Part shown: positions 27,001 through 39,000 of the stretch, piece by piece | Layout: each line of letters begins with the position of its first letter | Position numbering within the stretch: position 1 is the stretch's first letter | NCBI GenBank assembly: GCA_951406725.2 | Contig: OX597835.1 | Location: 44,516,001-44,580,000, forward strand | Direction: 5' to 3' | Length of the DNA stretch: 64,000 nt | Origin: Octopus vulgaris | Lineage: Eukaryota | Position numbers: made by a program

Positions 27001-30000
27001 CGAAAATGACAACAACCAAACTTTGTTGAGTGATTTTCTCGTATGAGTACAAACTGGGTCATTCTTTCGCAGAAGCTCTACGAATATTAAGCGGGCCTTT
27101 AGTAAGGGTTTTGTTGACAGATCTGTTCAGAGATGGTTCTAAAGTTCTCGTTCAGGAGATAATAGTCTTGAAAATAAACCAAGGAGTAGGCCAAAATCAG
27201 TTATTCTGCATGATGGATTAAATGCTTTGGTTGAACAAAATCCGAGGACGAAGGTTCGAAAACATTCATCAGAACTCCAAACATCTCGCACAACTGTTTT
27301 TGGACACCTGTAAAAAACTGGAAAAGTCAAGAAAACGGATAGGTTTGTTCCACATAAAATGAACAGACACCTCGAAGTGTGCTTCTCATTGCTTTCTAGA
27401 CTGGAAAATACTATTTTGGCATCAAATCTTTACTTGTGATAAGAAATGGTTACTCTTTGACAACAGCAGATCAGGACAGTGATTAGATGCAGGAGAGTCA
27501 CCTAAAAACTACCCAAACCCACCATTACACCCTAAAATGTTTGTGGTCACTGTATGGTGGTCTGCGAAGGGAGTTATTCATTATTCATTTTTGCAACAAG
27601 AAAAGACGGTAACAGCAACATCGCATTGCGGGGAAATTGATTATATGCATGAGAATTTGATAAAGCAGCAACCCAGACTAGTTAATCGAGATGGCTGAAT
27701 TCTGGTCCATGACAAAACACGTCCTCACACTGCTCAAGCAACGGGCCGAAAGTTGCAAAGCCTGAAATATGAGATTTTGCTACATCCTCCCTATTTCCTA
27801 CTGATCGTCACTTATATAAGCATTTTGAGCTTTTCATAAGCAATAAAACATTCTTATATAGAGAAGAGGTAATTGAATCATTTGGACAGTTTATCACAGG
27901 AAGAAAAGAAGATTTAAAAAAAATAATGGAATATATGACAGAGAAACGATGGGTAAACTTCATAAATGAACATGGATGATACTTTGATTAAATAAATCAG
28001 TTCTCTAACACTTCTGAAACATTTTATTGTTACCTTTCAGATACAACATTTCATGTGAAACAAACTAATATGTCGAATTAAAGATAGATGTACACAAAAT
28101 TTACATAGATATAAGAGTTAGAACTTGTGATCCAGTGATGGATGTCTTTCTTTAGAAATGTTTGCCTACGGCACGACAAAGTTTCCCCACACCTGGTTTA
28201 ACCGAACTCTTCGAGAAAACCAATCCGGGATCAGAAACTTTCTGTTTTATTATCTTGAATTTTCTTCGTTAAACGAATGAAAGCAGTAATAAAAAATTAT
28301 CCAAAATTCTGACTGCCCTCTTGTACTAAATATATATATATATATATATATATATATATATATATATATATATATATATAAGTATATATGTATGTATATG
28401 TATGTATATCAATATATATTAATAACGTTCCTTATATATATATATATATATATATATATATATATATATATATATATATATATATATATATATATATATA
28501 TATATATATATATATATACATATATATATATACATATATATATATACATATATATATATACATATATATATATATATACATATATATATATATACATATA
28601 TATATATATATACATATATATATATATATACATATATATATATATACATATATATATATATACATACGTTTAAATATTTGTTGTGCAAGATTTTTTATGT
28701 GAAGTCGTGTGTTGAAACAGATATTGTTATATTTCGGAATGGTCATATTGCCAGTTTAGCCAATAAAAACACACGCACTATATATTTGGTGTTATTTTGC
28801 TTCAGTGATATTTATTTTTTACATTAATCTTAATCTTATTTCGGCCAAAGTTCTTTCGTCACACTCCTGTGACCGCATCAGTGGTCCTTTGTTTTCTTCT
28901 CACTTACTTGTGTCTCTCCTTACTAACCGTCAGCCATTTTGTATTTCTATTGTATGTCTTCATTTGCGCATGCTTATATCTCTATGTGCGTCTATGTTTA
29001 TTTAGTGTGTGGGGGGGATGCCTGTAATATTTGTATCTTCTGGTTATATACATTCTTGTAATTTGTATTTTGTTTTTGTTGTTGTTGCTTTTGTTCTAAT
29101 TTTATTCATGTGTTTACATCCACCCATTATTATCATTACATATGCTTGTATGTATGTATAACAACAATATTAGTAATAATAATAATAAATCTAATCGAGA
29201 AAAAAAAAAAAAAAAAAAAAGAATATACATATACATATATATATATATACATACATATACATATACATATATATATATATATATATATATACATATATAC
29301 ACACATATATACACATATACATATACATATATATACACATATACATATATATAGATATTCATTTCTATTTCTTTAATTACCTGTGTATTTATTATGTTTG
29401 CAGGATCCACTATTGTCATATGTTGTGGTGTGCGCTATTGCTCCATTCTAGTTTTCTATTCAGGCTAGGTTTATTTTCTATTATATGTGTAGCTTCTGTA
29501 ATTTGTCTAATTGTTGCATCTGTTCTATGTGTGGACAATATCTTAATCTCTATGTTATTGATTGATCCCCCGTGTTCTTGTTCGGCGTGTTGGTACAGAA
29601 TCGATGAGCTTTTACCTTCCTTGAGTTGTCTCCAATGTTCATTCACCCGCTCACCAATGCTTCTTGCAGTTTCCCCTACGTATGTTACTGTCTTGTTACT
29701 GCATCGTCCCTCTATACATCTTATACTATAGACCACATTTCTGGCTTTACAGTTCGTTTGTGGGCTAAATCTACATACAGTGCAATAGTTATCCGTACAG
29801 AGAGTTCTACTAAAAGGATAGGTTCTACCAATTATAGATCTGATAGGGTTGCCTGGCTTTTCAACAACCTTAATTCTTAGTTTAAGTTTATCTAGGGTCC
29901 TTCTAAAGCGGTACGCTAGTTCACCTCCAGGGGTGGTGTCAACGAACATGACACTCTGGTATTTATGGCTATCATACCAAGAGTTGGCCTTCCTTATTTT

Positions 30001-36000: not shown

Positions 36001-39000
36001 ACAGCCATAAAGAAAGGATCAGAGTATACAAAGGAGCCATGAAGAAATTTGATAATATATTATGTAATGATAGGAATGGGATTTGCCCACTCTACAGGAA
36101 CAAGTCATGGAACACTATAGAAAGGACAAAAAAGAAAATAAGGAAGGCCAACTCTTGGTATGATAGCCATAAATACCAGAGTGTCATGTTCGTTGACACC
36201 ACCCCTGGAGGTGAACTAGCGTACCGCTTTAGAAGGACCCTAGATAAACTTAAACTAAGAATTAAGGTTGTTGAAAAGCCAGGCAACCCTATCAGATCTA
36301 TAATTGGTAGAACCTATCCTTTTAGTAGAACTCTCTGTACGGATAACTATTGCACTGTATGTAGATTTAGCCCACAAACGAACTGTAAAGCCAGAAATGT
36401 GGTCTATAGTATAAGATGTATAGAGGGACGATGCAGTAACAAGACAGTAACATACGTAGGGGAAACTGCAAGAAGCATTGGTGAGCGGGTGAATGAACAT
36501 TGGAGACAACTCAAGGAAGGTAAAAGCTCATCGATTCTGTACCAACACGCCGAACAAGAACACGGGGGATCAATCAATAACATAGAGATTAAGATATTGT
36601 CCACACATAGAACAGATGCAACAATTAGACAAATTACAGAAGCTACACATATAATAGAAAATAAACCTAGCCTGAATAGAAAACTAGAATGGAGCAATAG
36701 CGCACACCACAACATATGACAATAGTGGATCCTGCAAACATAATAAATACACAGGTAATTAAAGAAATAGAAATGAATATCTATATATATGTATATGTGT
36801 ATATATATGTATATGTATATGTGTATATATGTGTGTATATATGTATATATATATATATATATATGTATATGTATATGTATGTATATATATATATATGTAT
36901 ATGTATATTCTTTTTTTTTTTTTTTTTTTCTCGATTAGATTTATTATTATTATTACTAATATTGTTGTTATACATACATACAAGCATATGTAATGATAAT
37001 AATGGGTGGATGTAAACACATGAATAAAATTAGAACAAAAGCAACAACAACAAAAACAAAATACAAATTACAAGAATGTATATAACCAGAAGATACAAAT
37101 ATTACAGGCATCCCCCCCCCACACACTAAATAAACATAGACGCACATAGAGATATAAGCATGCGCAAATGAAGACATACAATAGAAATACAAAATGGCTG
37201 ACGGTTAGTAAGGAGAGACACAAGTAAGTGAGAAGAAAACAAAGGACCACTGATGCGGTCACAGGAGTGTGACGAAAGAACTTTGGCCGAAATAAGATTA
37301 AGATTAATGTAAAAAATAAATATCACTGAAGCAAAATAACACCAAATATATAGTGCGTGTGTTTTTATTGGCTAAACTGGCAATATGACCATTCCGAAAT
37401 ATAACAATATATATACATATATATATATATATATATATATATATATATATATATATATATATATATATATATATATATATATATATATATATATATATAT
37501 ATATATATACATATATATATATATATATATATATATATATATATATATAGTACAAGAGGGCAGTCAAAATTTTGGATAATTATCTTTTGTTATCTTACCG
37601 TTTTATCATATATATATATATATATATATATATATATATATATATATATATATATGTGTGTGTGTGTGTGTGTGTGTATGTGTGTGTGTGTGTATGTGTA
37701 TCTGTGTGTGTGTATGTGCGTGTTTGCCCGTACGTGTATTTATATATATGCAAGAGTGTGAGGGTATTTCTGAGTAATTCAAAGATCCAAACTTATTCAA
37801 CATTAATTCCACTTCTCTGAGAATTACATTAGGGACTCTACAATCTATAACCTTATTGAAATAAACTCAAAATAATTTGTTCTTTCCACAAATTGATCCA
37901 GTGTGTCAGGTAAGCAGGCATAGCAAATCCTGTTTGAAAATCGTAACCTATCCACAGCTCTATACATCTCAATTATGCGGAGGCACGAAACACATCTTGA
38001 CCAACTTTTGCAAACACTTATTAACCAGTACTCCCCTGAAATCAATATCTTGTAATCAAGTGTACTTCAGATGCAGATAAATGCTTTTCAATCTAATTCC
38101 AACACACTTCTCTACATCTTTCTCGTGAATTTTATGGCTAATAGAAGTGTCTGTTTCTGGTTTTCGTGGCTCTTGCAAACCTGTGTTTATGGTTCTATGC
38201 AACAACGAGTCAATATATCGTTGAAAGAGCCGTATGACATCGATGGATGTATTTTTGATTTTCTTTTGATTCCACAATTGTGATTTTATGGACTATTTTA
38301 ATTCAGAAACAAATTTTAAAACAGAAACAAATCGGAACTTTATACAAGAGGGAAAATTATATGCGCTGTCTGCACTTAAGAAACAAACTCACACCATCGT
38401 GTTGATTTGAAGCTTCTTTAATTGAAAATCTATCAAGGAAACGTATGGGATCGTAGTCTTTCTACCACAATCAAGGTACGAGTATGCCTCAGTGAAAACT
38501 GACCAATGGCATTCTTAAGGTCAAAAACTGCCTTCTTTCCATTGGAAATTATTTGCTGATAACATCCTGTGATACGGATTCAAGTCTTTGAGGTTAAAAA
38601 AAAATGAATATTGAACCATAATTGATCTGAGCTAAGCAAACAATCTTTACACGTTTACAATATGATAAATCAATAACTATTTCTTTACTCCCCACAAGGG
38701 GCTAAACACAGAGAGGACAAACAGGGACAGACAAACGGATTAAATCGATTACATCGACCCCAATACGTAACTGGTACTTAATTTATCGACCCCGAAAGGA
38801 TGAAAGGCAAAGTCGACCTCGGCGGAATTTGAACTCAGAACGTAGCGGCAGACGAAATACCGATAAGCATTTCGCCCGGCGTGCTAACGATTCTGCCAGC
38901 TCACCGCCTTGATACAATCAATAACACGTAGCTATTGTAGGGAGACGCTCAGACAGAACGTGAATAAGTCTCGGCAGATATCTCTCAGAAATCATTTTAG

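What the first reader, a model, noticed from the sequence alone, without database searches (positions are those of the whole stretch)
28665..37410. Very recent, probably active Penelope-like element inserted as an 8.7-kb head-to-head palindrome
Arms of ~3.84 kb surround a 1011-bp spacer (32562-33572) that holds the shared pLTR and the ORF start. The junction at 32561/32562 is blunt. The differences I can see are two transitions (33612/32522, 34189/31945) and homopolymer or microsatellite lengths. The ORF is intact with all catalytic motifs. Inverted and tandem insertions are known for PLEs, but a near-full-length inverted arm is striking. The GAAIG..M.WWD motif B' and the CxxxxCxxC linker suggest a Nematis/Neptune-type clade (inference).
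Basis: partly seen in the sequence, partly recalled or inferred. Interest (0 to 1): 0.8.

Follow-up and report, generated by a model that had tools for sequence, protein, structure and literature searches.

The report
Young Penelope-like retrotransposon, textbook inverted insertion
This is a very young, apparently intact Penelope-like retrotransposon in an octopus-like genome, and its head-to-head palindrome is the usual way such elements insert, so it is a clean example and not a surprise.

Summary
The arms are 28721-32561 (-) and 33573-37410 (+). They differ by 2 transitions and 4 homopolymer or microsatellite indels. A 1011-nt spacer separates them and the junction at 32561/32562 is blunt.

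The locus is an endonuclease-bearing Penelope-like element (PLE) with a 4.6-kb unit:
- an inverted 5'-truncated copy (28665-32561);
- a 310-nt pseudo-LTR (32562-32871);
- a full-length copy (32872-37410) with an intact 1309-aa RT + GIY-YIG ORF starting in the pseudo-LTR.

The left arm alone carries a 56-nt 3' "tail". Both ends lie in (TA)n. This architecture is described as typical of PLEs (PMC8557442, PMC3846280), and in vitro work links it to extension from both cleaved target strands and two internal RT start sites (PMC11167929).

A 99%-identical Octopus vulgaris protein points to the host and to another copy. Recently active PLEs are already tabulated for that genome (PMC13282606).

The CX4CxxC linker and CCHH motif fit Neptune/Nematis; no reference phylogeny was possible.

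Three extras:
- a 256-aa asparagine-rich in-frame segment;
- a hammerhead-like motif with one core deviation;
- an unexplained 45-nt inverted repeat beyond the (TA)n flanks.

Interest is modest.

The parts
28283..28328 (-). Left copy of a ~45-nt inverted repeat lying outside the (TA)n flank. It is host-side sequence, not part of the PLE.
   Evidence: The 32-nt core occurs twice in the window (28295-28326 on -, 1 mismatch; 37550-37581 on +) against 0.00 expected in 100 shuffles. Its extent comes from the local alignment.
28331..28664 (.). Left flanking (TA)n-type microsatellite, 334 nt, with periodic TG/CA interruptions and a 52-nt unique island.
   Evidence: TRF array 28330-28666; sequence read.
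28665..32561 (-). Inverted 5'-truncated PLE copy, 3897 nt (85% of the 4595-nt unit). It starts at the equivalent of 33573 and ends with the 56-nt tail.
   Evidence: The frame is split by a 1-nt A-run difference at 30007.
28665..28720 (-). 56-nt 3' 'tail', present on this arm and at the pseudo-LTR/body junction but absent from the right arm.
   Evidence: 28665-28974 is 100% complementary to 32562-32871. The right arm stops at the equivalent of 32815.
32562..32871 (+). Pseudo-LTR: a 310-nt direct copy of the element's 3' end (254 nt + 56-nt tail) in front of the full-length copy. It holds the ORF start.
   Evidence: Direct repeat 32562-32815 = 37157-37410, 100%, spacing 4595 nt.
32655..32682 (+). 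Hammerhead-like motif: CUGAUG, then C and G, a 6-bp hairpin, then GAAA, with a 5-bp helix I around it. Position 9 of the core is C instead of A. Identical copies lie at 37250-37277 (+) and 28854-28881 (-).
   Evidence: Regex; fold; chance test (0 hits in the other 55,264 nt; 4 of 2000 shuffles). Rfam gave no hammerhead match.
32872..37410 (+). Full-length PLE body, 4539 nt, lacking the 56-nt tail at its 3' end.
32790..36719 (+). Intact ORF, 1309 aa plus stop: N-terminal domain, asparagine-rich linker, RT, Cys-rich linker, GIY-YIG endonuclease.
   Evidence: homologues; alignments.
33537..34304 (+). Asparagine-rich in-frame segment (aa 250-505, 34% N; AAC 57 and AAT 30 codons). It sits in a linker that is short in most homologues. 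Both arm-to-arm substitutions fall here.
   Evidence: Composition; alignment A1; substitutions.
35358..35651 (+). RT core (motifs B' to C, including YVDD).
   Evidence: Pfam RVT_1 E 7.7e-4, below cut-off. NCBIfam Drt2/retron RT E 9e-6 to 1e-4, far below cut-offs. A1 profile to PDB DRT reverse transcriptases, E 4.7e-4.
36336..36362 (+). CX4CxxC Zn-finger-like linker (C1183, C1188, C1191) upstream of the endonuclease.
   Evidence: Invariant in 10 of 10 and 35 of 35 aligned sequences. Present in 106 of 111 hits that have a YxG[EQ][TS] motif.
36399..36572 (+). GIY-YIG endonuclease core with two cysteines between GIY and YIG (C1210, C1215).
   Evidence: Pfam GIY-YIG E 9.2e-4, below cut-off. Homologue P0061 passes the cut-off. 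Invariant Y1206, C1210, C1215, Y1222, G1224, R1233, H1237, E1284, N1296.
36720..37410 (+). 3' UTR with an internal TA/TG microsatellite (36777-36908), a T-run of about 20, and the 254-nt pseudo-LTR-equivalent end (37157-37410).
37411..37549 (.). Right flanking (TA)n, 139 nt, nearly pure.
   Evidence: TRF 37407-37549, 97% matches.
37548..37594 (+). Right copy of the ~45-nt flank inverted repeat.

Best explanation
One recent retrotransposition event placed an endonuclease-bearing, Neptune/Nematis-type Penelope-like element into a (TA)n microsatellite of an Octopus (probably O. vulgaris) chromosome. The result is the standard composite PLE insertion. Proposed mechanism, with shown and inferred steps marked:
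(1) A transcript from a tandem or partial-tandem donor starts inside the upstream pseudo-LTR and carries the ORF, whose ATG lies in that pseudo-LTR. The position of the ATG is shown here; the transcript start is inferred.
(2) The RT-EN protein cuts both strands of an AT-rich target. This is inferred here; it was shown in vitro for the Anolis element PAc.
(3) Each 3'-OH primes reverse transcription at one of two internal start sites near the ORF start. That gives one end with the 56-nt tail (left) and one without (right). The two end points are shown here; their cause is inferred.
(4) One cDNA runs through the whole unit into the pseudo-LTR. The other stops at the start of the asparagine-rich segment.
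(5) The two 5' ends are joined head to head without microhomology. The blunt junction is shown.
The full-length copy keeps an intact ORF and an upstream pseudo-LTR, so it is a plausible source of further copies. A read-through transcript would fold into a 3.8-kb hairpin, a likely small-RNA trigger (inference).
For: - Architecture: searches give the inverted 5'-truncated copy, the 310-nt pseudo-LTR, the 4595-nt repeat spacing, the tail on one end only, and the blunt junction.
- Youth: 2 substitutions in 3838 aligned positions. With the calibration quoted in PMC13282606 (JC 0.09 = 25 My; passages), that is of the order of 10^4-10^5 years, if the differences are real mutations (my arithmetic).
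- Coding capacity: a 1309-aa ORF that keeps all invariant columns of A1 (10 sequences) and A2 (35 sequences). Its N-terminus MTIPK aligns with MVIPK, MAITR and MALKP of homologues, which supports the ATG at 32790.
- Another copy: P0001, named as an Octopus vulgaris protein, matches at 784 of 794 residues.
[quoted passage not shown] In PMC3846280 the pseudo-LTR plus tail encode the first 12 to 22 aa of the ORF; here they encode 8 and 27 codons. PMC11167929 reports that both target strands are cleaved and extended, that there are two internal RT start sites whose interval equals the tail, and that cleavage prefers AT-rich DNA.
- Target: both ends lie in (TA)n.
Against: - Only one locus was available, and no reads, empty site or target-site duplication can be seen because both flanks are (TA)n.
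- A ~45-nt inverted repeat lies beyond the (TA)n on both sides. A simple insertion does not predict this. It could mean that a larger inverted duplication includes the flanks.
- (TA)n-type arrays cover 5.9-9.6% of the window outside the element, so one landing in (TA)n is weak evidence for targeting.
- The tail is 56 nt, longer than the 30-40 nt quoted in the literature.
- The hammerhead-like motif departs from the cuganga core at one base, and Rfam finds no hammerhead.
- The four indels are of the kind that long-read consensus errors produce, so the left-arm frameshift may not be real.
- Activity was not tested.
Confidence: 0.8

Rival explanations
1. An older inverted duplication that includes the host flanks. 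Its long arms are kept nearly identical by arm-to-arm gene conversion, so the 0.05% divergence does not date the insertion.
For: The inverted symmetry continues past the element: (TA)n, then a ~45-nt inverted repeat on both sides. That flank repeat is more diverged (2 substitutions + a 3-nt indel in 45 nt) than the arms (2 in 3838). The probability of 2 or more of the 4 substitutions falling in the 45-nt flank is 8e-4. This is what conversion limited to the long arms would give.
Against: The tail on one arm only, the pseudo-LTR and the blunt asymmetric centre are the signature of a primary PLE insertion and need no duplication. The left (TA)n holds a 52-nt unique island that the right side lacks. 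An independent 99% copy exists, so the family is young in any case.
Confidence: 0.1
2. Assembly artefact: a fold-back chimeric long read, or a mis-join, created an inverted copy of a single PLE insertion.
For: PLE tandem/inverted structures are known to trouble assemblies (PMC8557442; PMC3846280). The four indels are in homopolymers or microsatellites.
Against: The arms end differently (56-nt tail) and have different microsatellite flanks. They continue into 28 kb and 26 kb of unrelated unique sequence, and two substitutions separate them. There is a 1011-nt single-copy centre with a clean pseudo-LTR boundary instead of a spacer-less fold-back. No N lies nearer than 15410.
Confidence: 0.05
3. 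Two separate insertions of the same family: a full-length copy first, then a 5'-truncated copy that landed in inverted orientation exactly at its 5' edge.
For: [quoted passage not shown] The two substitutions could reflect two template RNAs.
Against: No target DNA lies between the copies, and the second copy's 5' end meets the first base of the pseudo-LTR exactly. This coincidence is needless if both arms arise in one event, as the literature assumes for this recurrent arrangement.
Confidence: 0.05

Closest known systems
Neptune (and Nematis) clades of endonuclease-bearing Penelope-like elements (Arkhipova 2006, as summarised in PMC8557442)
   Same: A single ORF with RT then a C-terminal GIY-YIG. 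The CCHH motif has two Cys between GIY and YIG. A CX2-5CxxC linker is present (here CX4CxxC). There is a pseudo-LTR, an inverted 5'-truncated copy and a tail. The insertion is in (TA)n; in PMC8557442 the linker was hypothesised to mediate such a microsatellite insertion bias in Neptune.
   Different: Placement by RT phylogeny was not done. The N-terminal motif reads DKS, not DKG (110 of 120 hits carry DKS-type strings). The hammerhead core has C at position 9. The ORF is 1309 aa because of an asparagine-rich segment.
Adineta vaga Pen2a and Pen3/Pen4 Penelope families with asparagine-rich inserts (PMC3846280)
   Same: A long in-frame asparagine-rich segment (25-30% N there, 34% here) enlarges the ORF to about 1300 aa. 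By coincidence the Pen2a ORF is also 1309 aa. There, part of the insert also lies inverted next to the 5' pseudo-LTR; here the inverted arm begins 36 nt into the segment.
   Different: Those elements belong to the Penelope/Poseidon group without the Cys-rich linker. Their inserts lie between RT and EN, or between RT core and thumb. Here the segment lies between the N-terminal domain and the RT, in a mollusc.
PAc, the Poseidon element of Anolis carolinensis studied in vitro (PMC11167929)
   Same: It provides the mechanism that fits this locus: both target strands cut and extended, AT-rich cleavage preference, and two internal RT start sites near the ORF start whose interval is the genomic tail.
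   Different: It belongs to a different clade. Its RT starts lie 111-118 nt into the ORF, against 26 and 82 nt here. Nothing was measured for the octopus element.
Recently active Penelope-like insertions tabulated for Octopus vulgaris (PMC13282606, Table 1: 31 families, 336 insertions)
   Same: Same host genus and the same class, with <=2% divergence and near full length.
   Different: That paper gives counts only in the passages I saw. I could not check whether this family or this locus is among them (its .docx supplement was not opened).

Membership tests
Penelope-like elements, canonical EN+ type | Single ORF with RT followed by a C-terminal GIY-YIG endonuclease | tested here: met
   RVT_1 at aa 857-954 and GIY-YIG at aa 1204-1261, both E<1e-3 but below Pfam cut-offs. 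158 homologues at E<=0.001. Homologue P0061 passes the GIY-YIG cut-off. Catalytic columns are invariant.
Penelope-like elements, canonical EN+ type | CCHH motif with two cysteines between GIY and YIG | tested here: met
   C1210 and C1215 lie between Y1206 and Y1222/G1224. H1237, H1253 and H1258 are invariant in 10 of 10 sequences. The equivalent columns are invariant in 35 of 35.
Penelope-like elements, canonical EN+ type | Pseudo-LTR formed by a partial tandem copy | tested here: met
   32562-32815 = 37157-37410 at 100%, spacing 4595 nt.
Penelope-like elements, canonical EN+ type | Optional inverted 5'-truncated copy next to the upstream pseudo-LTR, and a short tail on one end only | tested here: met
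   Inverted copy 28665-32561. The 56-nt tail is on the left end only. The tail is longer than the 30-40 nt quoted.
Penelope-like elements, canonical EN+ type | Hammerhead ribozyme motif in the pseudo-LTR | tested here: inconclusive
   No Rfam hammerhead at E<=1 over 11 kb, or at E<=10 over the pseudo-LTR. A hammerhead-like motif sits at the expected place and is unlikely by chance (the descriptor was written after seeing it). It reads cugaugc, not cuganga.
Penelope-like elements, canonical EN+ type | RT that groups with PLE RTs, sister to telomerase RT, in a phylogeny | not tested
   No named reference sequences could be obtained. Sequence searches of the PDB found only distant bacterial RTs.
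Neptune / Nematis clades | Conserved CX2-5CxxC Zn-finger-like linker between RT and EN | tested here: met
   C1183-x4-C1188-x2-C1191.
Neptune / Nematis clades | Placement in the clade by RT phylogeny, and Neptune versus Nematis | not testable with these tools
   This needs Repbase or other published reference RTs.
Neptune clade | Insertion bias for (TA)n microsatellites | tested here: inconclusive
   Both ends are in (TA)n. But n = 1, and (TA)n-type sequence makes up 5.9-9.6% of the surrounding window.
Penelope/Poseidon clade | No Cys-rich linker upstream of GIY-YIG | tested here: not met
   The linker is present.
Hydra clade | CCHH absent, linker CxCX5C, DKT motif, elements under 3 kb | tested here: not met
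   CCHH is present, the linker is CX4CxxC, the motif is DKS and the unit is 4.6 kb. Criteria are from PMC8557442 section 11.
Naiad / Chlamys clades | N-terminal GIY-YIG endonuclease | tested here: not met
   The endonuclease is C-terminal.

The most novel reading that the evidence does not exclude
The element landed in the centre of a pre-existing AT-rich palindrome: a long (TA)n bracketed by a 45-nt inverted repeat. On this reading the head-to-head product reflects symmetric cutting of a hairpin- or cruciform-forming target by a dimeric GIY-YIG RT-EN protein. PLE targeting of (TA)n would then be structure-directed, not sequence-directed, and the inverted arm would be its direct by-product. 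A lesser novelty is that the 256-aa asparagine-rich segment would be a second, independent case of N-rich capture by a PLE ORF, in a mollusc and in a linker-bearing clade. That phenomenon is so far reported for bdelloid rotifer elements only; one literature search found only that report and one 2012 conference report whose text I did not open.
Probability: 0.1. Interest if true: 0.6.

Novelty: new member of a known kind. Interest (0 to 1): 0.25.

Why it matters
Nothing about this locus changes what is known of PLEs. Its value is as a clean specimen. A near-zero-age insertion shows every hallmark at base resolution:
- the pseudo-LTR boundary;
- the blunt head-to-head junction;
- the two alternative 3' end points, 56 nt apart.

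These hallmarks match the two internal initiation sites and the double-strand cleavage seen in vitro for a lizard element. The intact 1309-aa ORF with its own pseudo-LTR is a candidate active copy in a genome where transposon activity is debated. It is also a natural source of long hairpin RNA. The asparagine-rich linker and the palindromic target are small leads on how PLE replication captures and selects sequence.

Tried and rejected
- Rfam scans for a hammerhead gave only microsatellite-driven miRNA look-alikes and chance hits. Those models may not cover minimal PLE hammerheads, so the negative is weak.
- Pfam on the whole ORF gave nothing. Only the cut pieces gave sub-threshold hits.
- PDB sequence searches were uninformative. 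The RT-EN region matched only microplusin at E 0.2. The EN piece matched UvrC at E 0.21 and I-TevI at E 0.52, neither significant. The A1 profile hit only bacterial defence RTs.
- NCBIfam gave only far-sub-threshold RT hits.
- The Atlas look-up of the N-terminal 250 aa pointed to DUF8422 (PF28514) clusters at scores 0.90-0.91, a lead only. That family is not in the Pfam copy used.
- Folding of the tail region (z -1.5) and of the hammerhead-like region (z -1.1) gave no significant stability.
- The bacterial promoter/terminator scan is irrelevant to a eukaryote.
- I tested whether other (TA)n arrays in the window also have inverted flanks. The test was swamped by microsatellite flanks, so I draw nothing from it.
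- 3' transduction of the (TA)n + 45-nt flank from a donor locus was considered. I rate it unlikely because the flank repeat is significantly more diverged than the arms.
- The asparagine-rich segment as a retained intron was considered. It cannot be tested without RNA data. One reverse frame is fully open and two other frames are nearly open (3 and 4 stops), so openness alone proves nothing.

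
Full report
**Observation.** The repeat finder and blastn of the element against the window give arms 28721-32561 and 33573-37410, with 1011 nt between them. A MAFFT comparison (contexts printed) finds two substitutions and four length differences. The substitutions are 33612 T / 32522 C and 34189 A / 31945 G. The length differences are a 1-nt A-run, a TATA unit, a 2-nt T-run and a 2-nt C-run. The junction at 32561/32562 shares no base between the two partners, so it is blunt (read). 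No other copy of the element lies in the window. The only N run is 15311-15410.

**Anatomy.**
- The 310 nt at 32562-32871 are a direct copy of the element's 3' end. 32562-32815 equals 37157-37410 at 100%, with a start-to-start spacing of 4595 nt. The full 310 nt are 100% complementary to 28665-28974.
- On the + strand the locus therefore reads pseudo-LTR (32562-32871), then full-length body (32872-37410).
- On the - strand it holds a 5'-truncated copy (32561 down to 28665; 3897 nt, 85% of the unit).
- The left arm ends 56 nt further into the element than the right arm. That 56-nt piece is also present at the pseudo-LTR/body junction.
- The ORF (32790-36719, 1309 aa) starts inside the pseudo-LTR. 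The pseudo-LTR without the tail carries 8 codons of it, and with the tail 27 codons. tblastn recovers those 27 codons at the end of the left arm.
- In the left arm the A-run difference splits the frame. Differences in homopolymers and microsatellites are the usual long-read consensus errors, so I do not lean on that frameshift.

**Protein.**
- Pfam finds nothing in the whole ORF. In cut pieces it gives RVT_1 (E 7.7e-4) and GIY-YIG (E 9.2e-4), both below the curated cut-offs.
- The large protein search with residues 520-1309 returned 158 proteins at E<=0.001 among 2709 candidates, of which 120 were listed.
- The best hit, P0001, is named by its source as a hypothetical Octopus vulgaris protein. 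It matches at 784 of 794 aligned residues and is a 5'-truncated gene model of another copy. It shares S467 with the left arm.
- The remaining hits are 30-48% identical and unnamed.
- I aligned the ORF with 9 long hits chosen by hand (A1) and residues 520-1309 with 34 hits chosen across the list (A2). The query keeps every invariant column. These include RKDHK, the motif A aspartate, YVDD, four linker cysteines, the GIY and YIG tyrosines, two cysteines between them, and the R, H, E and N residues beyond.
- The N-terminus MTIPK aligns with MVIPK, MAITR and MALKP of three homologues, which supports the ATG at 32790.
- On this evidence the host is Octopus, most likely O. vulgaris. A transposon protein cannot exclude a sibling species.

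**Clade.** The criteria come from PMC8557442 (passages; section 11 in full).
- Penelope/Poseidon lack the Cys-rich linker.
- Neptune and Nematis have CX2-5CxxC.
- Hydra lacks CCHH, has CxCX5C and DKT, and is under 3 kb.
- Naiad and Chlamys carry the endonuclease at the N-terminus.
- This ORF has a C-terminal endonuclease, CCHH and CX4CxxC, so it fits Neptune/Nematis only.
- Of the 120 listed hits, 111 have a YxG[EQ][TS] motif, and 106 of those have C-x2-5-C-x2-C within 70 residues upstream.
- The N-terminal motif reads DKS here and in 110 of 120 hits. The paper speaks of DKG for canonical PLEs.

**Asparagine-rich segment.**
- Residues 250-505 (33537-34304) are 34% asparagine, mostly AAC and AAT codons. 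The peak is 49 N per 100 residues. Across the 120 hits the median is 11 and the maximum 22, and one of the two hits at 22 is P0001, from the same family.
- In A1 the segment falls in a linker that is about 40-70 residues long in seven of nine homologues. It is long, but not N-rich, in the other two.
- Both arm-to-arm substitutions lie in it and both change the amino acid (C275R, N467S).
- The inverted arm begins 36 nt into it.
- PMC3846280 (passages) describes the same phenomenon in Adineta vaga Penelope families: long in-frame N-rich inserts with 25-30% N. By coincidence one of those ORFs also has 1309 aa, and part of its insert lies inverted beside the 5' pseudo-LTR. The paper called this unobserved in other retrotransposons.
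- My one search for 'Penelope-like' plus 'asparagine-rich' found only that paper and a 2012 meeting report.
- Whether the octopus segment is translated or spliced out cannot be told from DNA. One reverse frame is fully open and two other frames are nearly open (3 and 4 stops) there.

**Hammerhead.**
- Rfam gives no hammerhead at E<=1 over 27500-38500, or at E<=10 over the pseudo-LTR.
- By pattern each pseudo-LTR copy holds CUGAUG, then C and G, a 6-bp hairpin with a GGAG loop, then GAAA. A 5-bp helix I with one bulge surrounds it, and there is a UH cleavage-site candidate (fold).
- A long helix II, a short helix I and an unpaired base before helix II are the traits given for PLE minimal hammerheads (PMC4209133, passages).
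- The core has C where the cuganga descriptor (PMC8557442 section 20) requires A.
- A descriptor written after seeing the motif finds it once per unit. It finds it nowhere in the other 55,264 nt on either strand, and in 4 of 2000 mononucleotide shuffles, or 0 of 2000 when helix I is also required.
- I read it as a hammerhead relative of unknown activity.

**Flanks.**
- Both ends abut (TA)n. The left tract is 334 nt with interruptions and a 52-nt unique island. The right tract is 139 nt and nearly pure. No target-site duplication can be defined.
- Beyond the (TA)n both sides carry the same ~45 nt in inverted orientation. The 32-nt core occurs twice in the window with 1 mismatch, against 0.00 expected. 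The 17-nt core gives 2 matches against 0.10 expected. The match then continues with a 3-nt indel and one more mismatch before homology stops.
- The flank repeat is more diverged than the arms. The chance that 2 or more of the 4 substitutions fall in the 45 nt is 8e-4. It is therefore older than the arms' common origin, unless the arms are being homogenised.
- The simplest reading is that the element entered a pre-existing AT-rich palindromic site. The genome needed to test this was not available.
- (TA)n-type sequence covers 5.9% (pure runs) to 9.6% (TRF) of the window outside the element. This single landing therefore says little about targeting.

**Mechanism.**
- PMC8557442 states that a full-length PLE copy is often preceded by a partial tandem copy forming the pseudo-LTR. 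[quoted passage not shown] PMC8969392 repeats this for curators.
- PMC11167929 (main text read in full) reports several things for the Anolis element. The protein cleaves and extends both target strands. It prefers AT-rich DNA. It starts reverse transcription at two internal sites near the ORF start, and the interval between them corresponds to the genomic tail.
- The octopus locus fits point for point. Two outward-facing 3' ends lie in AT-rich DNA and end 26 and 82 nt after the ATG. Two 5' ends are joined in the middle.
- I therefore take it as the product of one event (confidence 0.8).
- The rivals are an old palindrome kept alike by gene conversion (0.1), an assembly artefact (0.05) and two separate insertions (0.05).

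**Known or new.** Penelope elements are among the abundant repeats of coleoid cephalopods (PMC8967140, passages). A 2026 annotation of O. vulgaris lists 31 PLE families with 336 recently active insertions (PMC13282606, passages). I did not open its supplement, which might name this family. The finding is thus a new, very clean member of a known kind. The long inverted arm is not exceptional in kind. The modest leads are the asparagine-rich linker in a linker-bearing mollusc PLE, the one-base hammerhead variant, and the palindromic target.

**Left open.**
- Read support was not checked.
- No empty site or population data could be examined.
- Copy number and targets of the family are unknown.
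- Expression was not checked.
- The RT phylogeny was not run.
- No fold comparison was made.
- None of the available collections holds octopus DNA.

Noticed in passing
28283-28328 (-) and 37548-37594 (+): A ~45-nt inverted repeat lies just outside the (TA)n tracts on both sides of the element. The 32-nt core has 1 mismatch, and there is no other copy in the window. It is more diverged than the arms. Possible readings: a pre-existing palindromic site, MITE-like ends, or two truncated retroposon tails.
   Followed up: partly
33537-34304: A 256-aa in-frame segment with 34% asparagine sits inside the PLE ORF, in a linker that is short in most homologues. Both arm-to-arm substitutions fall here and both are non-synonymous. 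It parallels the N-rich inserts of Adineta vaga Penelope elements.
   Followed up: partly
36777-36935 (and 29195-29358 in the left arm): The element's own 3' UTR contains a TA/TG microsatellite followed by a T-run of about 20, which reads as a poly(A) on the antisense strand. This may be the remnant of an older antisense retroposon tail carried by this family.
   Followed up: no
12100-12768 (+), within ORF 11755-12768: An open frame with a zf-RVT match above the Pfam cut-off (E 9.7e-7). It is a remnant of a non-LTR retrotransposon.
   Followed up: partly
39627-39926 and 56272-56571: Two direct copies, 95% identical, of a repeat. Each overlaps an open frame ending ...RTDWR.LI.RV. There was no Pfam match. 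From memory it looks like a LINE 3' end.
   Followed up: partly
13190-13421, 19979-20210 and 2324-2749 (-): A short interspersed repeat. The two + copies are 85% identical. A similar translated motif appears on the - strand near 2400-2700. It may be a SINE.
   Followed up: no
17279-18750 and 46057-46552: A family of ~180-nt units repeated locally at two places 28 kb apart, with identities of 62-88% (families D6 and D7).
   Followed up: no
54003-54964 and 58455-59217: Long A/T-rich trinucleotide arrays that read as poly-N, poly-I or poly-L in several frames. They are 66-69% similar to the element's N-rich segment. Sequence of this kind could be the source of such a segment.
   Followed up: no
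whole window: Tandem repeats cover 14.6% of the window by TRF (118 arrays). Pure (TA)>=6 runs cover 5.2%. There is one 100-N gap at 15311-15410.
   Followed up: yes
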